Source: Dehalococcoidia bacterium
Lineage (GTDB): Bacteria; Chloroflexota; Dehalococcoidia; Bin125
Direction of reading: 5' to 3'
DNA: 64,000 nucleotides
Assembly: GCA_965207365.1 (NCBI GenBank)
Contig: OZ242281.1
Span: forward strand, 2,173,331 to 2,237,330
A program made the position numbers and the translations under genes. The notes beneath the pieces are model-generated. The model had not been told where the DNA came from, ran no database searches, and saw nothing but the letters and a program-made list of their open reading frames with translations. This document shows positions 1,296-54,037 of the stretch, in pieces (within the stretch, counting starts at the first letter, position 1; the number at the start of each line of letters is the position of its first letter).

Positions 1296-1443
1296 CTTCC
1301 CCCGCTTCACGCGGGGGTCTGCTCGGCGTTCGCGTCCAGACCACCGTCATTCCCGCGCAGGAGCGCGGGAATCTCGCCGACTTGGGCGTCAACTGTCGCG
1401 CGGAGAGGATCGAGATACCCGCGTCAAGCGCGGGTATGACGGA
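1296..1443. repeat. REP-like GC-rich palindromic unit cluster
   Basis: Three hairpins: cccccgc-ttca-cgcggggg (1299-1317), gtcattcccgcgc-agga-gcgcgggaatctcgc (1346-1377), gagatacccgcg-tcaa-gcgcgggtatgac (1412-1440). The first ~90 nt recur nearly verbatim at 5271-5355. Confidence 0.8.
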
Positions 1444-4670: not shown

Positions 4671-4743
4671 CGACTGGAGGTCATGTAGCGCAGCTTATTG
4701 GTGAAGGGCAACGGGGATGCAGAAGGACGCCCGCTGCCTGCGG

Positions 4744-4776
4744 CATCTCCCCCTGCGAGGGGGAGAGCGGAGTGAC
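4744..4776. repeat. solo arm fragment of the MITE-like family
   Basis: catctccccctgcgagggggagagcggagtgac matches the terminal arm (catctccccccgcaagggggggagagg) and core (actccgtgac, here as its reverse complement) of the elements at 14627, 29738 and 49343. Confidence 0.5.
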
Positions 4777-4794: not shown

Positions 4795-4891
<97 letters not shown>

Positions 4892-4959: not shown

Positions 4960-5049
4960 GGAGAGGTGCTGGAGTGGACGATCAGGCACGCCTGGAAAGC
5001 GTGTAGGGCTGCAAGGCCCTCGTGGGTTCGAATCCCACCCTCTCCGCCA
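4960..5049 (+). tRNA. tRNA-Ser (anticodon GGA)
   Basis: Acceptor GGAGAGG/CCTCTCC; anticodon stem CACGC/GCGTG with loop CTGGAAA; long variable arm; T-arm identical to the first tRNA-Ser; encoded CCA. Confidence 0.9.
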
Positions 5050-5084
5050 GCCTTTGCTCGTTTCAATAGCCAGTTCGAATACTC

Positions 5085-5416
5085 CGTCATACCCGCGCTT
5101 GTCGCGGCTATCTCGCAGCTCACTCCACCACTATTGAGTCGGGACTGTCAGGGCCCACGCGCCCGGTCTCTTCCTTTCTGGCAAACGTACAGTTGGCTTC
5201 GAGATTCCCGCGGCAAGCGCGGGAATGACGAATCTGGAGGCCCTTACGTGAGGCTGTCTCAAAAGTCTCTATCCCCCGCTTCACGCGGGGGTCTGCTCGG
5301 CGTACGCGTCCAGATACCCGTCATACCCGCGCTTGCCGCGGGTATCTCGCCGAGCCCAGCGGGAAGGTCGGTGCACGACGCAGCGAGATTGCCGCGACGG
5401 AGTCCGGCAATGACGG
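5085..5416. repeat. REP-like palindromic unit cluster (5 units, both orientations)
   Basis: Units at 5085-5118, 5201-5230, 5271-5292, 5319-5355 and 5386-5416. Consensus is GTCAT(A/T)CCCGCG-loop-CGCGGG(A/T)ATCTCGC or its reverse complement. Confidence 0.8.
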
Positions 5417-11134: not shown

Positions 11135-11283
11135 CGTCATTGCCGCGCTCCGACGCGGCAATCTCGCAGGGTACAACTCCGACGTTTGTATCCGTGGAGC
11201 GTCGCCTGGCTCCCCCCCAGCCACCTTCTAACTAACGTGCAGCGCGCTGCGAGATACCCGCGCCGGAGTGCGGGTATGACGGA
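11135..11283. repeat. REP-like palindromic units (two, opposite orientation)
   Basis: cgtcattgccgcgctccgacgcggcaatctcgcag (11135-11169) and gcgagatacccgcgccggagtgcgggtatgacgg (11249-11283). Confidence 0.75.
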
Positions 11284-13616: not shown

Positions 13617-14568
13617 GTCCGACGCGCCTGTCGTAGCGGGGCCGAGCCTGCGTCGCCACGGCATCTACATGCCTCCACGCGGAACGTACGTGGAAGTGGG
13701 CCGGACTCGAGACATCTCGCGGATGCCCAATCCCGACATCCGCTTCGGCTTCTGCCGTTGGCCGTCCGAGCTGATTGCTTACCTGGAACCAGACGACGCT
13801 GTCACTGATGCGGCGGTGCGGCTGCGGCAACTTGGTCCGAAGCTGGTCCTGGCGTTACAAGCGATGCAACTGCCGCTGGAAGATCTGAAGAATCGAACCG
13901 TCGGCGCGATAGAGGAAGAACTCACACAGGAGATGGTCGAGCGTACGCCACTACAGGTCGATCTGGTGGCTCGCTATCTCGCCGAACTGCTTGATCACGT
14001 GGCCACCGTGATTCCGTTCTGTTACGACGACGATGGCGCCGCGCTGCTGGATCGGCGAGGCAGTCTGAGGCGGATGGCACACGGTCCATTGGCCGACGTT
14101 GACCCGCTACTCGCCGAGATTGTCGCGCCAGGTGGAGACTTGCCGGTCTGGGCCGAGACTCTGGCGAGCACAACGATTGGCGCGGATTCCGACTTCTCAG
14201 CGCTGCCGCTGGCCAACGATCCGAACATCTACCTGATCACCAATCATCCCAACTTTGAAGCGGCCGATCCCGAGCAGAAGATTGAGGCGCTCAAGGCGTC
14301 AGCCCGTCAGACGATTGCCGCGGCTGAGGCGATCGATGCGTCGTTGACGGACATGTTCCTCTGGCTCGAGGCGCTGCTCGACCATCTGATCGACGTCGTC
14401 TGCGACCGCGTGGACGATGATGGTCGATTGCGACAGCGGTGGTCGACGGACGAGTGGACGGTGATCCAGCGACTGACGTTCTTCGACACCGACGCAGCGC
14501 TCGCGGTCACCCGGACGTTCCCAGCGATTTCGGATGGGCCACTGCTGCCGGGGACTGAGTCGGAGTAG
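13603..14568 (+). CDS. hypothetical protein with internal duplication
   Basis: Overlaps the upstream stop by 14 nt. Internal repeat: LAELLDHVATVIPFCYDDDGAALLDRRGS versus LEALLDHLIDVVCDRVDDDGRLRQRWST. No family recognised. Confidence 0.5.
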   Translation: MPATESDAPVVAGPSLRRHGIYMPPRGTYVEVGRTRDISRMPNPDIRFGFCRWPSELIAYLEPDDAVTDAAVRLRQLGPKLVLALQAMQLPLEDLKNRTVGAIEEELTQEMVERTPLQVDLVARYLAELLDHVATVIPFCYDDDGAALLDRRGSLRRMAHGPLADVDPLLAEIVAPGGDLPVWAETLASTTIGADSDFSALPLANDPNIYLITNHPNFEAADPEQKIEALKASARQTIAAAEAIDASLTDMFLWLEALLDHLIDVVCDRVDDDGRLRQRWSTDEWTVIQRLTFFDTDAALAVTRTFPAISDGPLLPGTESE

Positions 14569-14605
14569 TTGGGGTCGCATGGGAAATTCGAGCCACTTAC
14601 CAGTT

Positions 14606-14823
14606 CGTCATTCCAGCGGCAAGCGGAGGCCTTTGAAAAACTCCCCTTCTCCCCCCTTGCGGGGGAGATGCCGAAGGCAGAGGGGGGGGTCCGCTGTTCA
14701 GGAGCCCTATCTGGTCATCATCAGCCGTCCCCCCTCTGTCACTCCGTGACATCTCCCCCCGCAAGGGGGGGAGAGGGGATTCGGGAGTTTTGCAAAGGCC
14801 TCCGACAAGCGCGGGCATGACGG
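14606..14823. mobile_element. MITE-like palindromic element, copy 1 (core 14627-14801) inside a REP-like hairpin
   Basis: Imperfect terminal inverted arms of ~45-50 nt (aggcctttgaaaaactcccc..ccttgcgggggagatg / catctccccccgcaaggggggg..ttttgcaaaggcct). Near-identical copies at 29738-29931 and 49343-49515. Confidence 0.7.
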
Positions 14824-14860
14824 AATTCGGATCAGGTTCAGGTCGCCTCTGCTGACTGCC

Positions 14861-15991
14861 CTACTCCACGCAGGCAGCGGCCATCGTGCCGATTCTGGCG
14901 GTACGCTCTCGGATGTTCTCGTCCTGCTGGAAGCCGTTGGTCAGGAATCCCACTGAGAGGCCGGTCTCTGGGTCTCCCCAGGCGATCTGTCCTCCCGCTC
15001 CGGCGTGACCGAAGGCGCTTGGCGATGCGCCCTGGCCGAATCCACGCTCCTCGGTCAGACCGTCTTCCCCTGCGAGGACCACGGTCAGCGCGCGGTTGAC
15101 GTGGATGCCGGAAAGTGGGTCAGTGTGGCGATCGGGATTCGTGCCGACGGTTGTGCCCAGTTCGATCGCGCTCTTTCCGAGCGGGCCGTCTTCCGACGGC
15201 TTGATCAGATGCTGATAGAACATCGCCACATCGGCTGCGTTGGCGAACGCGCCGCCGCCGGGGCATCCCGCTCGGCGCTGGGAGGCGAGGTTGAAGTGCA
15301 GAATGGTCTGCGGGAAGACCTCGCCGCCGTCCACGGGCAGCGGCTCCTCGGTGTAGACGATCGATGCTGCGCGTTCGTGCTCCTCATTGGGCAGGCCGAC
15401 GAAGAGGTTGTCGAGTCCCATTGGGTCGAGCAGATTGGTTCGCAGCCAATCGCGGAAATCCTCACCCGTTTTCTGCTCGATGATTTCAGCCAGTACCCAG
15501 TGGGCTGAGGTCGCGTGGTACTCCCACTGCGAGTCCGGCGTCCAGTTGAGCCGCCAACCCATCATCCGACGCAGCCGCGCGTCTCGATCTTCCCAGAGTC
15601 GTGGGTTCATGGGCGCGTGCGGGAAGCCGCCCGTGTGCAGCATGACGTTGCGAACGGTGACATCGGCGTAGGCAATCTCGCCGTTGCCCTCGGCGCACCA
15701 GCCGGGAATGATGTCGACGACGCGCTCATCGAGATCGAGCAGTCCTTCGTCAAGCAGCTTCCAGACACCGACGCCGACGATCGCCTTGGTCGACGAGAAC
15801 ATGCAGAACAAGGTGTCGTCGCGCGCTGATGCGACCGATGCGCCCTGGTGCGCGACACCGAACGTTTTGAATCCTGCGATTTCGCCGTCGTGCCCGATGG
15901 CGATCTGCGCCGCGGGCACCTTTGCGTCAGTGACGATGCCTTCGACGTAATCGAAGAGATCGTTGAGTTTGTCCTGGTTGATTGAAGTCAT
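14861..15991 (-). CDS. beta-lactamase-family serine hydrolase
   Basis: SxxK motif in FSSTKAIVGVGVWKL, with the class-C/esterase-like pattern. ATG 15991 is preceded by GAGGTGGAG. Confidence 0.8.
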   Translation of the reverse strand: MTSINQDKLNDLFDYVEGIVTDAKVPAAQIAIGHDGEIAGFKTFGVAHQGASVASARDDTLFCMFSSTKAIVGVGVWKLLDEGLLDLDERVVDIIPGWCAEGNGEIAYADVTVRNVMLHTGGFPHAPMNPRLWEDRDARLRRMMGWRLNWTPDSQWEYHATSAHWVLAEIIEQKTGEDFRDWLRTNLLDPMGLDNLFVGLPNEEHERAASIVYTEEPLPVDGGEVFPQTILHFNLASQRRAGCPGGGAFANAADVAMFYQHLIKPSEDGPLGKSAIELGTTVGTNPDRHTDPLSGIHVNRALTVVLAGEDGLTEERGFGQGASPSAFGHAGAGGQIAWGDPETGLSVGFLTNGFQQDENIRERTARIGTMAAACVE

Positions 15992-29709: not shown

Positions 29710-29737
29710 CCGGATACCCGCTGGGCACCGCTCCAGG

Positions 29738-29931
29738 AGGCCTTTGAAGAACTCCCCTTCTCCCCCCTTGCGGGGGAGATACCGAAAGCCTGCCCCTGGC
29801 CTGAACAGGGGGCAGAGTGGGGTCCGCTGTTTGGCAGCCATATCTGGTCATCATCCGCCCCCCCTCTGTCACTCCGTGACATCTCCCCCCGCAAGGGGGG
29901 GAGAGGGGATTCGGGAGCTTTTCCAAGGTCT
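29738..29931. mobile_element. MITE-like palindromic element, copy 2
   Basis: Same arms and core as copy 1, bracketed by complementary REP-like arms (ggatacccgctggg ... cccagcgcgggtatc). Lies between C1 and SBP4. Confidence 0.7.
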
Positions 29932-29966
29932 CCCCAGCGCGGGTATCACCAAAACAACGGCGCCCC

Positions 29967-43855: not shown

Positions 43856-46492
43856 ATGATGACCAGCACTGACTCACATCTCCTCGACGGCGTTCGCGTG
43901 ATTGAGATTGGAGACGAAGTCTCCGCCTATGCCTGCAAGCTACTGGCCGGGCTTGGCGCTGACGTGATCAAGGTTGAACCGCCGGAAGGCTGCTCGACAC
44001 GCAACATCGGACCCTTCTACGAGGATGAGCCGGGTCCGGAACGGTCGCTGTATTGGTGGCACTACAGCATCGGCAAGCGCTCGGTCACGCTCGACTTCGA
44101 GTCGGAGGACGGTCGTTCGTCGCTGCTGACTCTGTTCAAGACGGCCGACCTCTTCCTCGATGCACGATCCAAGAACGACATCGACGCCTACGGCCCTGAT
44201 GAAGACGTCATTCGTCAAGCGAACCCGGATATCGTGATTGCTCGCATGTCACCCTTCGGTGATTCTGGACCGTGGGCTGAGTATCGAGGCTCGGACCTCG
44301 TGCACCTGGCGCTCGGTGGGCCGATGATGAACTGCGGCTACGACCCGCAGCCGGATGGCACCTACGACACTCCGCCAATCGCGCCGCAGATGTGGCAGGC
44401 GTACCACATCGCCGGCGAGCTGACCTGCATGAATGCCATCGCGGCACTGATTGATCGTCACCGATCGGGTCGCGCCCAAACGTTGCACACCGCCGTCCAC
44501 GACGCGGTAGCCAAGAACACCGAGCTCGATCTGATGAGCTGGGTCTACCGACGCGCCCGCTACTTCCGCCAGACTTGCCGACACGCCGCCGAGGTCGTCA
44601 CGCCGCTGCCGATGATCGGTCCGACCAAGGACGGACGCTGGGTCATGGCGCTGCCTCGCGGACGCTCGCAATCGCTGATCGACTTCCTCGACGACTACGA
44701 CATGTCCGCCGACCTCAAGGAAACGCCGCCAGAGACGGGCGGAGCCAGCACCAGGTCGAGAGGCGAAACAGCGGCGCATTTGCAAGAGGTCTCGCAACGC
44801 CTAATCCGCAAGTTCCGTTTCGAGGACGTGCCCTGGCGAGATGCGCAGGACCTCGGACACCTCTGGGCGCCGCTGCGCAAGCCGCACGAGAACGCCCTCG
44901 ATCCTCACTGGTGGGAACGAGGCAGTTTCGCCAAGGTTGAACATCCTGAACACGTAGTCGACGGCAAGCCAGCGGAATTCATCTATACCTCAAGCAAGTG
45001 GGTGTCGTCCGAGACCTCATGGAAGGTCGGCCCGCGCGCCCCGTTACTCGGCGAGCACAACGACGAAATCCTGGCAGATCTGAAACCAGATTCCCAGGCC
45101 GCTAGTTCTTCGCTCCCCCCCTTGCGGGGGGAGCTGCCGAAGGCTGAGGGGGGGTCCCTCTCCCGATGGGGAACCCCATTCCCCCTCGACGGTATCCGCA
45201 TCCTCGACTTCACCTGGTGGCTCGCTTCAGGCGGAGCTCCCCGATTCCTTTCCGCACTGGGTGCCGAGGACATCAAGGTCGAGTGGCATCAGAACATGGA
45301 CCTGCGCGTCGGCATGGCGCAGTTCCCGCAGGGCGGTCAGGCAGCTCGACAGGCGCTCGGCGTCAACGAGGGTCCGTTGCCGCCCGACAATTCCACAATC
45401 AACCGCTCCGGCCAGTTCAACGACTTCCACGCTGGACACCGCGGACTCTCGCTCAACCTGCGCGACCCGCGCGGCCTCGAGATCGCCAAGCAGCTCGTCG
45501 CAGTCAGCGACATCGTCGCCGAGGGCTTCTCGCCCGGCGTGATGGAGCGTTGGGGTCTCGGTTATGAGGTAATGAAGGAGATCAAGCCCGATATCATCTA
45601 CCTCTCGCAGTCGGGCATGGGACAGGTCGGCGTCTACGGTCGCTACCGCACCGTTGGACCGATTGCCGCCTCGTTCGCCGGGATCTCCGAGCTGTCCGGC
45701 CTGCCTGAACCCTACGCGCCCGCCGGCTGGGGCTACAGCTATCTCGACTGGTTCGGCGCCTACAACCTGGCCAATGCGATGATGGCCGCGCTCTACTACC
45801 GCTACCGCACCGGCAAAGGCCAGTGGATCGATTCTTCGCAGGTCGACGCGGGTATCTACCTGAACGGCACCTCGGTGCTCGAGTGGTCGGCCAACGGCAA
45901 GGTCTGGCAGCGCTACGGCAACCGCTCGCCTTACAAGCCGGCCGCGCCTCATGGCGCGTACCAGTGCCGCCACGACATCGAATCCAACGACCGCTGGATC
46001 GCCTTCGCCTGCTTCGACGAGCCCAACTGGCAGTCGCTGCGCCGGGTCATGGGAGACCCGGAATGGGCCGCCTCAGACCGCTTCGCCAGTCTCGCCGACC
46101 GTCTCCAACATCAGGACGAACTGGACCAGAGAATCGGCGAGTGGACCCGGCAGCACGACCGCTGGGACCTGATGCAGCGCCTGCAGGAAGCCGGAGTCGC
46201 CGCCGGAGTCTGCCAGGACGCGCAAGACCGATTCGAGGCCGACCCACAGCTCAGCCACCTCAACTGGCTGACCGAGGTCGAGCACTCAGAAATGGGTCCC
46301 TGGCCAACCAAGGAAGTCCCCGTCAAGTGGAGCGAAACCCCACCATTCATGGGAGGCCCCATCGATCGAGGATCCCCGCTCTACGGAGAAGACAATCACT
46401 ACGTCTTAGGGGAGCTGCTGGGAATGAGCACGTCAGAGATTTCGCGCTTGGCGGATGACGGCGTGATCGCTGAGGATCTCACATCGGTGTGA
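43856..46492 (+). CDS. tandem fusion of two family-III (CaiB/BaiF) CoA-transferase modules
   Basis: Module 1 begins LDGVRVIEIGDEVSAYACKLLAGLGADVIKVEPPEG. Module 2 begins LDGIRILDFTWWLASGGAPRFLSALGAEDIKVEW. Each module is ~400 aa. Confidence 0.85.
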   Translation: MMTSTDSHLLDGVRVIEIGDEVSAYACKLLAGLGADVIKVEPPEGCSTRNIGPFYEDEPGPERSLYWWHYSIGKRSVTLDFESEDGRSSLLTLFKTADLFLDARSKNDIDAYGPDEDVIRQANPDIVIARMSPFGDSGPWAEYRGSDLVHLALGGPMMNCGYDPQPDGTYDTPPIAPQMWQAYHIAGELTCMNAIAALIDRHRSGRAQTLHTAVHDAVAKNTELDLMSWVYRRARYFRQTCRHAAEVVTPLPMIGPTKDGRWVMALPRGRSQSLIDFLDDYDMSADLKETPPETGGASTRSRGETAAHLQEVSQRLIRKFRFEDVPWRDAQDLGHLWAPLRKPHENALDPHWWERGSFAKVEHPEHVVDGKPAEFIYTSSKWVSSETSWKVGPRAPLLGEHNDEILADLKPDSQAASSSLPPLRGELPKAEGGSLSRWGTPFPLDGIRILDFTWWLASGGAPRFLSALGAEDIKVEWHQNMDLRVGMAQFPQGGQAARQALGVNEGPLPPDNSTINRSGQFNDFHAGHRGLSLNLRDPRGLEIAKQLVAVSDIVAEGFSPGVMERWGLGYEVMKEIKPDIIYLSQSGMGQVGVYGRYRTVGPIAASFAGISELSGLPEPYAPAGWGYSYLDWFGAYNLANAMMAALYYRYRTGKGQWIDSSQVDAGIYLNGTSVLEWSANGKVWQRYGNRSPYKPAAPHGAYQCRHDIESNDRWIAFACFDEPNWQSLRRVMGDPEWAASDRFASLADRLQHQDELDQRIGEWTRQHDRWDLMQRLQEAGVAAGVCQDAQDRFEADPQLSHLNWLTEVEHSEMGPWPTKEVPVKWSETPPFMGGPIDRGSPLYGEDNHYVLGELLGMSTSEISRLADDGVIAEDLTSV
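45111..45160. repeat. MITE-family fragment embedded in-frame in the CoA-transferase linker
   Basis: ctcccccccttgcggggggagctgccgaaggctgagggggggtcc matches MITE copy 1 (ctccccccttgcgggggagatgccgaaggcagaggggggggtcc). It encodes SLPPLRGELPKAEGGS. Confidence 0.7.
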
Positions 46493-49303: not shown

Positions 49304-49342
49304 CAGAGTTCTCCTGATTGTGTCTCAGTCCCCGCTCTACGG

Positions 49343-49515
49343 AGACCTTCGAAAAACTTCCGAATCCCCTCTCCCCCCCCTTGCGGGGGGAGATGTCACG
49401 GAGTGACAGAGGGGGGGCGGCGGATGATGACCTGATAGGGCTCCCGAACAGCGGGCCCCCCCTCCGCCTTCGGCATCTCCCCCGCAAGGGAGGAGAAGGG
49501 GAGTTTTCAAAGGTC
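49343..49515. mobile_element. MITE-like palindromic element, copy 3 (inverted relative to copies 1 and 2)
   Basis: Reverse complement of the copy 1/2 sequence, bracketed by gtccccgct / agcggggac arms. Sits between two paralogous hydrolase genes. Confidence 0.7.
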
Positions 49516-49578
49516 TCCGCAAAGCGGGGACTGGAAAGCTCGATGTTTGAGCCACCCTCTCAAGTGCGCGTCTAGCTG

Positions 49579-53702: not shown

Positions 53703-53855
53703 TGTGGGCTCCATTCGGCTGCGTTCCAGGATCGGCAAGTGCGTCGCAAGGCTAACAGTCGGCAAGGTGGTCCGAAGGGGGTGGTGCGAAGGCGTGGTCC
53801 GAAGGCGTGGTGCGAATGACTCTTGCCGATAGAGACTGATGAATAACCTCTCAAC

Positions 53856-53997
53856 CGCCCCCGCCCCCGAGCGGGGGCCCGCTCCTTCCCCGGCCCCGGC
53901 GCGGGGGCCATTCTTACGCCTCGTATCTGGTCATCCGTAGCCAGTCGGTGCTGCCGTGGACCAGCCAGAGCGGGTCCCCGCTCGGGGGCGGGGACGG
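53856..53997. repeat. variant palindromic element related to the MITE family
   Basis: Inverted arms of ~30 nt: ccgcccccgcccccgagcgggggcccgctc / gagcgggtccccgctcgggggcggggacgg. The centre, tatctggtcatc, is shared with the MITE core. Confidence 0.6.
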
Positions 53998-54037
53998 GAA
54001 TCTCAGTTGTGCATCAGTCTCCGATAGGCTGACTCCC

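What the first reader, a model, noticed from the sequence alone, without database searches (positions are those of the whole stretch)
14627..14801. MITE-like ~175-195-bp palindromic element family (at least 3 full copies, plus fragments and a variant)
Full copies lie at 14627-14801, 29738-29931 and 49343-49515 (inverted). They share imperfect terminal inverted arms of ~45-50 nt (aggcctttgaaaaactcccc..ctccccccttgcgggggagatg) and a common core (..ccgaaggc.gagggggg.tccgctgtt...ctatctggtcatcatc...cccctctgtcactccgtgac). Each arm itself contains a ctcccccc-ttgc-gggggag hairpin.

Related sequences are fragments at 4744-4776 and 45111-45160, and a variant with different arms but the same tatctggtcatc centre at 53856-53997. 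No transposase is present in the window.

All full copies are intergenic at operon boundaries: after a hypothetical gene, between C1 and SBP4, and between two hydrolase paralogs. They may act as terminators, insulators or recombination substrates.
Basis: seen in the sequence. Interest (0 to 1): 0.62.

Follow-up and report, generated by a model that had tools for sequence, protein, structure and literature searches.

The report
Orphan IS5-type MITE in hairpin loops
The repeat is a real miniature transposon (about 160 full copies in this 3.46-Mb Dehalococcoidia genome) that shares its ends with IS5-family insertion sequences found only in sister species and lands in the loops of other GC-rich hairpin repeats, so it is an ordinary kind of element with an unusually clear, self-nesting anatomy.

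Summary

- **Termini.** There are two terminal subfamilies, TIR_I (GAGACTGATGCAYAACT) and TIR_II (GAGRCCTTTGAAAAACTC). The window copies are TIR_II.
- **Autonomous partners.** Sister species carry intact 1.17-1.25-kb IS5-family elements with exactly these ends. The TIR_I element is in G002 and G051, the TIR_II element in G006. The window's own genome has neither transposase.
- **Target duplications.** TIR_I MITEs and the TIR_I element both make 5-bp duplications (39/67 exact). TIR_II copies duplicate the whole loop of the hairpin they enter.
- **Sites.** Orthologous sites are empty or differently filled in relatives.
- **Targets.** The preferred targets are loops of REP-like hairpins, including the hairpin each MITE carries in both arms, which explains the nesting.

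The arms are hairpin plus mirror G-run modules of the BoxC/"intrastrand triplex" type. The same modules bracket every DUF559 nuclease gene. The "variant" at 53.9 kb is a second MITE family with TIR_I ends and a perfect CGATA duplication. A terminator role is not supported. No RAYT gene is present.

The parts
14626..14802 (+). Family-1 MITE, copy 1 (TIR_II subfamily): GAGGCCTTTGAAAAACTCCCC ... GGGAGTTTTGCAAAGGCCTC
   Evidence: Its nearest paralogue is 98.8% identical.
14606..14625 (+). Left half of the host REP-B hairpin (CGTCAT-T-CCAGCG-loop). Positions 14617-14625 (CGGCAAGCG) form the left copy of the flanking direct repeat.
   Evidence: (I14). The orthologue L002 has an uninterrupted REP-B hairpin at this site.
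14803..14822 (+). Right half of the host REP-B hairpin. Positions 14803-14811 (CGACAAGCG) form the right copy of the direct repeat (8 of 9 bases match the left copy).
14649..14689 (+). Left arm module: CTCCCCCC-TTGC-GGGGGAG, then AT, the mini-hairpin GCCGAAGGC, then A-GAGGGGGGGG. The last block mirrors the second, which is the BoxC/triplex-type design.
   Evidence: 403 such modules in the genome, and the mini-hairpin co-varies. The design is compared with the TMECO consensus in PMC4666352.
14708..14717 (+). Central motif TATCTGGTCA at the apex of the palindrome
   Evidence: It is the best-conserved part of the core. It occurs 164 times in the genome against about 26 expected, and is shared by at least 3 families with unrelated arms.
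14729..14773 (-). Right arm module, inverted relative to the left module, with mini-hairpin GTCACGGAGTGAC
29737..29932 (+). Family-1 MITE, copy 2 (TIR_II). It carries an extra ~20-nt hairpin (ctgcccc..ggggcag) in the left arm. Flanks are TCCAG / CCCAG.
   Evidence: The nearest relative G016 (97% identity in the flanking gene) lacks it.
49342..49517 (-). Family-1 MITE, copy 3 (TIR_II), inside a REP-C hairpin (CAGTCCCCGC...GCGGGGACTG at 49524-49533 / 49326-49335). The flanking loop halves are inverted, not direct.
   Evidence: G051 has an orthologous copy. G001, G003 and G042 have 10-59-nt gaps with no repeat. G006 has a different, independent insertion.
53832..54021 (.). Family-2 MITE: TIR_I ends (GAGACTGATGAATAAC ... 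TTGTGCATCAGTCTC), arms with a GTCCCCGC..GCGGGGAC hairpin, the same centre motif, and a perfect 5-bp duplication CGATA (53827-53831 / 54022-54026)
4730..4773 (-). Solo arm module upstream of the tRNA pair
   Evidence: (I15).
45113..45154 (+). Solo arm module

Best explanation
The element is a non-autonomous DNA transposon (MITE). It is moved in trans by IS5-family DDE transposases that recognise its 17-18-bp terminal inverted repeats.

**Families and partners.** Two related transposases (52% identical) define two terminal subfamilies. At least three MITE families with different interiors share the TIR_I ends.

**Integration.** Insertion is aimed at the apical loop of GC-rich hairpin (REP-like) repeats.
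- The TIR_I system makes a fixed 5-bp duplication.
- The TIR_II system, which includes the three window copies, duplicates the whole loop of the hairpin it enters.

**Nesting.** Each MITE carries two copies of the preferred target hairpin in its arms. Every insertion therefore adds two new targets, which gives nested and clustered copies.

**State in this genome.** The copies are orphans, because neither transposase is encoded here.

**Shown:** the termini, the duplications, the targets, the partner elements in sister species, site polymorphism, and the absence of the transposases from this genome.

**Inferred:** that these transposases act on the MITEs, that the target is recognised as a structure, and that the copies are currently immobile.
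For: **Family size and subfamilies.** About 355 loci and about 160 near-full copies. Alignment of 141 copies shows two terminal subfamilies.

**TIR_I duplications.** Of 67 copies with both TIR_I ends, 39 have an exact 5-bp duplication and 52 have at most one mismatch. No signal appears at other lengths or offsets. Seven exact duplications lie in non-hairpin targets.

**TIR_I targets.** 45 of 67 copies lie in C-run/G-run hairpin loops.

**TIR_I partner element.**
- Size 1170-1189 bp, with ends GAGACTGATGCATAACT on both sides.
- ORF of 323-329 aa.
- Present in G002 (1 copy) and G051 (5 copies).
- Four of the G051 copies could be delimited. Their duplications are TTAGA, TTGCA, TCAAA and TTGCG, three of them in hairpin loops.

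**TIR_II partner element.**
- Size 1234-1248 bp, with ends GAGACCTTTGAAAAACTC and GAGACCTTTGATTAACTC.
- ORF of 338 aa.
- Present in G006 (3 copies).
- Two copies have 6-bp flanking repeats CTTGCG and CGCAAG. The third has none.

**Transposase family.** Both proteins match NF033581 (IS5 family) at 248 and 263 bits against a cut-off of 140.

**Absence from the own genome.** tblastn finds only weak partial matches of 27-41% identity. The genome search finds 0 matches at 1e-30.

**Site polymorphism.** Seen at all three window sites.

**Distribution.** Restricted to one genus, with full-length copies only in G000, G001, G006 and G016.

**TIR_II MITEs in G006.** 16 of 29 have exact direct repeats of 6-7 bp, of the form C-loop-G, in hairpin loops.
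Against: - The MITE shares only 17-18 nt with the IS elements, so common descent is not shown, only common termini.
- The canonical duplication for the IS5 group is 4 bp (own knowledge of ISfinder). Here it is 5 bp for TIR_I.
- For TIR_II the length varies with the target: 6 bp in REP-A, 7 in REP-C and 9-10 in REP-B (4, 5 and 7-8 if the ends are read as GGAGRCC). A fixed stagger does not fit.
- Several TIR_II copies, including window copy 3, have inverted rather than direct flanks.
- The single TIR_I element in G002 has no duplication.
- Some copies are 98-99% identical although no transposase is encoded here.
- No transposition was observed directly.
Confidence: 0.85

Rival explanations
1. 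The inner part of the element, two inverted hairpin plus G-tail modules around a short spacer, is a REPIN-like doublet. On this view it is spread or maintained by the DUF559 (Vsr-fold) nuclease genes, whose own flanks have the same layout. The IS5-type ends would be a secondary acquisition.
For: - 5 of 5 DUF559 genes in this genome are bracketed by inverted modules.
- Most DUF559 genes in the genus are bracketed the same way.
- 52 of 63 DUF559 genes from diverse phyla are bracketed, against 1 of 63 distal controls.
- The DUF559 protein clade tracks the module type.
- The MITE interior has the same module - spacer - module geometry.
Against: - No activity of DUF559 on these repeats is known.
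- Genomes of the genus without a stand-alone DUF559 gene still hold the modules.
- The DUF559 units lack the GAGAC termini.
- The duplications and shared termini are fully accounted for by the IS5 partners.
- Because the modules are palindromic, direct comparison of the flanks also scores high (33 of 63 at 30 or more).
Confidence: 0.1
2. It is a REPIN moved by a REP-associated tyrosine transposase (RAYT).
For: The architecture is a doublet of inverted hairpins, copy number is high, and copies are intergenic.
Against: - No Y1_Tnp (PF01797) match anywhere in the genome, while the control genomes give matches.
- Clear target duplications and terminal inverted repeats, which the HUH/Y1 mechanism does not produce.
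Confidence: 0.02
3. It is an immobile dispersed structured repeat with a host function, such as a terminator, an mRNA stabiliser or a structured RNA.
For: The fold is very stable, the centre motif is conserved, and copies lie at gene boundaries.
Against: - Target duplications, partner IS elements and site polymorphism show mobility.
- There is no Rfam match.
- There is no terminator-like hairpin plus T-run.
- A secondary host role is not excluded.
Confidence: 0.03

Closest known systems
Bacterial MITEs that share termini with an insertion sequence (Correia/NEMIS, Nezha, Chunjie, MITEPsy; reviewed in PMC3184786)
   Same: - Size of 175-196 bp.
- Terminal inverted repeats and target duplications.
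- No coding capacity.
- Hundreds of copies, mostly intergenic.
- Folds into a long hairpin.
- A cognate IS exists with the same ends.
   Different: - Only 17-18 nt are shared with the IS.
- The partners are absent from this genome.
- The arms are built from another repeat class.
- The element carries its own preferred target, so it nests.
REP-targeting insertion sequences (IS1397/ISKpn1 of IS3; IS621, ISPpu9/10, ISPa11 of IS110; ISNm1106 of IS5; PMC1525189)
   Same: Insertion is into palindromic extragenic repeats. IS5 and IS110 families are both among the known REP-targeting families. Here an IS110 element also sits site-specifically in the modules.
   Different: - Here both the IS and its MITEs target the loop.
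- For TIR_II the duplication spans the whole loop, whatever its length.
- The lineage is Chloroflexota, which is not among the genomes covered by that study's passages read here.
IS5 family, IS5 group (E. coli IS5)
   Same: - Size of about 1.2 kb.
- A single transposase gene of about 312-338 aa that matches NF033581.
- Short terminal repeats beginning GA/GG.
   Different: The duplication is 5 bp (TIR_I) or loop-length (TIR_II), not the usual 4 bp. The usual value is from my own knowledge and was not tested here.
BoxC / PIT / TMECO intrastrand-triplex repeats (PMC4666352)
   Same: The arm modules have a pyrimidine block, a loop, a purine block, a second loop and a mirror purine block. The D-type modules in this genome fit CCCTCNCCC-N3-6-GGGNGAGGG-N3-GGGNGAGGG closely.
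   Different: - In the MITE arms the second loop is 12-16 nt long and holds a co-varying mini-hairpin.
- The blocks are C/G runs.
- TMECO was reported as not associated with mobile elements, whereas here the modules sit inside a MITE and are IS targets.
REPIN-RAYT systems (PMC3116915, PMC3333891)
   Same: Doublets of inverted hairpin repeats, and a single-copy enzyme gene flanked by the same repeats. Here that enzyme is DUF559.
   Different: There is no Y1 transposase. The element has duplications and terminal repeats. The associated enzyme has an unrelated Vsr-type fold (PDB 3hrl).

Membership tests
MITE | Small size (under about 300 bp) and no transposase gene | tested here: met
   Copies are 175-196 bp. 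No transposase-sized ORF can fit.
MITE | Terminal inverted repeats | tested here: met
   The ends are GAGACTGATGCAYAACT or GAGRCCTTTGAAAAACTC, and the arms are imperfectly inverted over about 45-50 nt.
MITE | Target-site duplication | tested here: met
   - TIR_I: exact 5-bp duplication in 39 of 67 copies and at most one mismatch in 52 of 67.
- Window 53832-54021: CGATA on both sides.
- TIR_II: direct repeats in most copies, but of variable length.
- Window copy 3 has none.
MITE | Autonomous element with the same termini | tested here: met
   IS5-family elements with identical 17-18-nt ends are present in G002, G051 (TIR_I) and G006 (TIR_II). None is present in the own genome.
MITE | Presence/absence polymorphism at orthologous sites | tested here: met
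MITE | Mobilisation by the partner transposase | not testable with these tools
   This needs a transposition assay.
IS5 family (partner elements) | Transposase matches the curated IS5 model above its cut-off | tested here: met
   NF033581 scores 248 and 263 bits against a cut-off of 140, and PF01609 also matches.
IS5 family (partner elements) | 4-bp duplication typical of the IS5 group | tested here: inconclusive
   The TIR_I element gives 5 bp in 4 copies. The TIR_II element gives 6 bp, or 4 bp if its ends are read as GGAGACC...GGTCTCC.
REPIN/RAYT | A RAYT (Y1 transposase) gene in the genome, flanked by the repeat | tested here: not met
   PF01797 gives 0 matches in the own genome, while the control genomes give matches.
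REPIN/RAYT | No target duplication | tested here: not met
   Duplications are present.
BoxC/PIT/TMECO triplex motif (arm modules only) | Three consecutive blocks: pyrimidine, purine, mirror purine | tested here: met
   The blocks are CTCCCCCC / GGGGGAG / GAGGGGG. There are 403 such modules. The published consensus was read.
BoxC/PIT/TMECO triplex motif (arm modules only) | Short second loop (N3) | tested here: not met
   The second loop is 12-16 nt long and holds a mini-hairpin.
BoxC/PIT/TMECO triplex motif (arm modules only) | Forms an intrastrand triplex | not testable with these tools
   This needs CD or NMR on oligonucleotides.

The most novel reading that the evidence does not exclude
The MITE is a chimera of two selfish systems.

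**First system.** Its arms are BoxC/triplex-type modules. These would be the cognate repeats of DUF559 (Vsr-fold) nuclease genes, forming a RAYT-like repeat-and-enzyme partnership that uses an unrelated enzyme. The evidence is that DUF559 genes across bacterial phyla sit between inverted copies of such modules.

**Second system.** The outer ends belong to IS5-family transposases, which recognise the loops of those same modules as a DNA structure and duplicate the whole loop.

**Consequence.** The IS5 system would both feed on and multiply the nuclease's repeats.
Probability: 0.2. Interest if true: 0.8.

Novelty: new member of a known kind. Interest (0 to 1): 0.45.

Why it matters
- **Assembly and annotation.** The family explains about 1% of this genome and most of its intergenic palindromes. 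It also explains why short-read assemblies of these Dehalococcoidia break at these sites.
- **A MITE-IS pair in an uncultured lineage.** The pair is cleanly documented, with the partner in sister species only. Such a pair can serve as a marker of recent gene flow or loss.
- **A model for hairpin-loop targeting.** An IS5-type transposase enters hairpin loops, and for TIR_II the duplication equals the loop. That would be mechanistically unusual if confirmed.
- **Genome rearrangement.** Recombinant copies and the IS110 and IS1595 insertions inside MITEs show that these repeats are rearrangement hot spots.
- **An open question made testable.** The link between the arm modules and DUF559 genes bears on which protein, if any, partners the BoxC/triplex repeats.

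Tried and rejected
- **RAYT / IS200.** No PF01797 match in the own genome, so the REPIN reading was dropped.
- **Rfam.** At gathering thresholds over the whole window, only two tRNAs matched.
- **Autonomous element in the own genome.**
  - TIR pairs 0.6-5 kb apart with matching duplications were all separate MITE copies, or a MITE carrying an IS110.
  - Self-megablast found IS110, IS481, IS1595 and other IS5 elements, none with these ends.
- **Exact-pattern scan.** Scanning all species genomes for the TIR_I sequence followed by a purine gave only chance hits in unrelated taxa. That scan was wasted.
- **The 330-aa IS5 element of G006.** It has unrelated ends (GGAAAGCTCTGAACAAG) and a CTAG target.
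- **Public reads.**
  - Only short-read contigs were available, and they end at the repeat.
  - No informative empty-site joints were seen.
  - No RNA runs were identified, so read-through could not be tested.
- **Terminator and promoter consensus scan on copy 1.** Nothing was found.
- **Fixed duplication length for TIR_II.** No single length or offset fits.
- **Literature searches.** Searches on DUF559 plus repeats or palindromes, and on MITEs in sponge Chloroflexi, found nothing relevant.

Full report
**1. The observation**

The three copies are in the sequence as described, and repeat detection recovers them (I3, I6-I9, I12-I14). Read by their conserved ends they are 14626-14802 (+), 29737-29932 (+) and 49342-49517 (-).

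The window lies in a single 3.46-Mb contig with 62% G+C. Orthologous loci come from Dehalococcoidia/Chloroflexota MAGs. Several isolate names suggest sponge metagenomes; that inference is mine and was not verified.

blastn of copy 1 against the genome gives about 355 merged loci covering 37.6 kb. About 160 are 120-200 bp long and about 150 are 20-60 bp.

Copy 1 with its flanks folds as one long DNA hairpin at -72 kcal/mol, z = -9.7.

**2. Anatomy**

An alignment of 141 near-full copies with flanks shows a constant interior and two kinds of outer end.

| Subfamily | Left end | Right end | Share |
|---|---|---|---|
| TIR_I | GAGACTGATGCAYAACTCCCC | GGGGAATCGGAGGATATGCATCAGTCTC | the majority |
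| TIR_II | GAGRCCTTTGAAAAACTCCCC | GGGGATTCGGGAGTTTTKCAAAGGYCTC | includes all three window copies |

The interior is two inverted modules around a spacer of about 40 nt. Each module has these parts:
- A C-run/G-run hairpin, CTCCCCCC-TTGC-GGGGGAG.
- Two bases.
- A mini-hairpin.
- A G-run, GAGGGGGG, which is the mirror image of the hairpin's 3' half.

There are 403 such modules in the genome. The mini-hairpin stem co-varies (GCC/GGC, GTCAC/GTGAC, GTCGC/GCGAC, GCCCC/GGGGC, GTCCC/GGGAC), so its structure, not its sequence, is kept.

This pyrimidine - purine - mirror-purine design is that of the BoxC/PIT/TMECO 'intrastrand triplex' repeats, whose consensus is CCCTCNCCC-N3-6-GGGNGAGGG-N3-GGGNGAGGG (PMC4666352). 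The module here differs in having a long second loop.

The spacer holds TATCTGGTCA, the best-conserved part of the core.

**3. Mobility signatures**

*TIR_I duplications.* For the 67 copies with both TIR_I ends, the 5 bases before GAGAC equal the 5 bases after GTCTC exactly in 39 and with one mismatch in 13 more. Other lengths and offsets give essentially nothing.

*TIR_I targets.* 45 of the 67 lie in the loop of a C-run/G-run hairpin. That is the same hairpin the element carries in each arm, which explains the nested copies. Thirteen lie elsewhere, seven of them with exact duplications such as AGATA, TGTCA, TGGTA, TAGTA, GTCCT and CCGGA.

*The 'variant'.* The window's 'variant' is the inner part of a 190-bp element at 53832-54021. 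It has TIR_I ends, different arms (a GTCCCCGC..GCGGGGAC hairpin) and CGATA on both sides. At least three families with different interiors share the first 16-17 nt of TIR_I.

*TIR_II copies.* These lie in the loops of two other REP-like hairpins:
- REP-B: CGTCAT/CGAGAT-n-CCCGCG-loop-CGCGGG-n-ATGACG/ATCTCG.
- REP-C: CAGTCCCCGC-loop-GCGGGGACTG.

Most have direct flanking repeats that span the whole loop, for example CGCTTGTCG, CAGCAAACG, CGACGGAGCG and CGAAAAG. Their length is 7-10 bp when the ends are read as GAGRCC/GGYCTC.

| Window copy | Flanks |
|---|---|
| Copy 1 | CGGCAAGCG / CGACAAGCG |
| Copy 2 | TCCAG / CCCAG |
| Copy 3 | inverted, not direct |

**4. The autonomous partners**

No pair of these ends encloses a transposase in the own genome.

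A search of four close relatives for DDE_Tnp_1 genes, followed by a scan of the returned loci for the two termini, found both partners.

| Partner | Size | Ends | ORF | Where found |
|---|---|---|---|---|
| TIR_I element | 1170-1189 bp | GAGACTGATGCATAACT on both sides | 323-329 aa | G002 (1 copy), G051 (5 copies) |
| TIR_II element | 1234-1248 bp | GAGACCTTTGAAAAACTC / GAGACCTTTGATTAACTC | 338 aa | G006 (3 copies); pseudogene or remnants in G004, G001, G052 |

Other points on the partners:
- **Family.** Both proteins are IS5-family transposases by the curated NCBIfam model NF033581 (248 and 263 bits; cut-off 140). They are 52% identical to each other.
- **TIR_I element in G051.** Four copies have distinct flanks with 5-bp duplications TTAGA, TTGCA, TCAAA and TTGCG, three of them in hairpin loops. 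The behaviour matches that of the MITEs.
- **Not an IS inside a MITE.** Inside the 17 nt the IS sequence is unrelated to the MITE, so this is not an IS inserted into a MITE. It also means the MITE is not a simple deletion derivative.
- **TIR_II MITEs in G006.** There they lie in module hairpin loops with exact 6-7-bp repeats of the form C-loop-G in 16 of 29 copies. The TIR_II elements show CTTGCG and CGCAAG.
- **Ambiguity in TIR_II length.** If the ends are read as GGAGRCC...GGYCTCC, these become 4 bp (the loop itself), and the REP-C and REP-B cases become 5 and 7-8 bp. Either way the duplication follows the loop, not a fixed stagger. I could not resolve this, because both the targets and the ends are palindromic.
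- **Absence from the own genome.** tblastn finds only weak partial matches of 27-41% identity, and the genome search finds 0 matches at 1e-30.

**5. Sites in relatives**

*Copy 1.*
- The orthologue L002 (96% protein identity) has an uninterrupted REP-B hairpin at the site.
- Other close relatives have other repeats or nothing.

*Copy 2.*
- The nearest relative G016 (97% nucleotide identity in the flanking gene) shares the left flank up to the insertion point and lacks the MITE.
- More distant species have 24-76-nt spacers.
- G006 has an independent TIR_II insertion.

*Copy 3.*
- G051 has an orthologous, diverged copy.
- G001, G003 and G042 have 10-59-nt gaps with no repeat.
- G006 has a different nested insertion.

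*Distribution.* Full-length copies occur only in G000, G001, G006 and G016. Other members of the genus have diverged elements or solo modules, and other families of the class have none.

**6. Age and after-effects**

- Mean pairwise identity is 82%. Nearest-neighbour identity has a median of 95% and reaches 99.4%. Some copies are therefore young even though no transposase is encoded here. The transposase may have been lost recently or supplied transiently, or gene conversion may be at work. This is unresolved.
- Thirteen of 156 copies have one TIR_I and one TIR_II end and sit between halves of different host hairpins. I read these as recombination between copies.
- Four full copies of an IS110-family element each interrupt a MITE at CAGAG|GGGGGG of a module.
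- An IS1595-family duplicate sits in TIR_II ends.

**7. What it is not**

- There is no RAYT or IS200-type gene and no Rfam family.
- There is no hairpin plus T-run terminator and no sigma-70-like promoter on copy 1.
- Read-through could not be tested. No RNA runs were identified, and the public runs are short-read contigs that stop at the repeat.

**8. Side result: DUF559**

I tested it.

- All five DUF559 genes of this genome are bracketed, within tens of bases of start and stop, by inverted modules with the G-run facing the gene. The modules are either the MITE-arm type or a CCCTCTCCC..GGGAGAGGG..GGGTGAGGG type.
- Most genes in the genus are bracketed the same way.
- The protein tree separates the genes by module type.
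- In 63 loci from many phyla, the flanks align as inverted repeats at a score of 30 or more in 52, against 1 of 63 for distal control windows.
- The nearest solved structures are an 'endonuclease-like protein' (3hrl) and a 'mobile intron protein' (3r3p).
- I found no paper on this association. Many notes of this scan already describe it.
- The DUF559 units lack the GAGAC ends, so this does not compete with the IS5 explanation of the MITE's mobility. It bears on where the arms come from.

**9. Verdict**

This is a well-supported MITE family: a new member of a known kind. Its IS5-family partners are in sister species, it targets hairpin loops, and its self-nesting design is notable. Open points are the loop-length duplications and inverted flanks of the TIR_II copies, the conserved centre motif, and the role of DUF559.

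Noticed in passing
genome 857.7 kb, 2434.4 kb, 3226.9 kb and 3274.8 kb, plus a partial copy at 15.8 kb (all outside the window): An IS110-family element of about 1.2 kb is present; the copy read at 3226.9 kb has a frameshift near the 3' end of its transposase gene. Every full copy interrupts a family-1 MITE at CAGAG|GGGGGG of an arm module, in either arm. This is site-specific targeting of the repeat.
   Followed up: partly
genome 680752-681066, 708215-708532, 462471-462791, 2865762-2866079 and 3346063-3346386; loci L074-L101 and L238-L317: DUF559 (Vsr-fold) nuclease genes are bracketed by inverted hairpin plus mirror G-tail (BoxC/triplex-type) modules. This holds for 5 of 5 genes here and for 52 of 63 in diverse phyla, against 1 of 63 distal controls. 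The protein clade tracks the module type.
   Followed up: yes
window 14708-14717 and genome-wide: TATCTGGTCA sits at the apex of at least three palindromic families with unrelated arms. It occurs 164 times against about 26 expected. It is absent from the partner IS elements, and its function is unknown.
   Followed up: partly
genome 1734846-1737849 and 2168993-2171996 (the second lies just upstream of the window): A 3-kb segment is duplicated at 100% identity and carries an IS1595-family transposase. Both copies are inserted in the outer TIR_II end of a MITE.
   Followed up: no
genome, e.g. 325.7 kb, 541.9 kb, 673.9 kb, 1878.6 kb: Another MITE family has IS5-like ends (GGGCGTGTTCACAT...) next to TA/CTAG. 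It carries a single arm-type module in its middle.
   Followed up: no
genome 458.8-471 kb: A 12-kb cluster holds dozens of tandem and nested modules and MITE pieces around one DUF559 gene.
   Followed up: no
window 1344-1442, 5083-5416, 11135-11186: REP-B units (CGTCAT/CGAGAT-n-CCCGCG-loop-CGCGGG-n-ATGACG) cluster near the two tRNA genes at 4795-4883 and 4960-5046. There are about 170 such hairpins genome-wide, and they are the hosts of TIR_II MITEs.
   Followed up: partly
window 20.0-32.1 kb: Four paralogous solute-binding-protein genes carry long CAG/CAA (Gln-rich) repeat stretches near their 5' ends (repeat finder D3, D8).
   Followed up: no
Read laying on window 14200-15200: Summed contig word depth over the arm modules is up to about 1000 times that of the unique flanks in four metagenome runs. 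Short-read contigs end at the element. The module is therefore extremely abundant in these communities and breaks assemblies.
   Followed up: no
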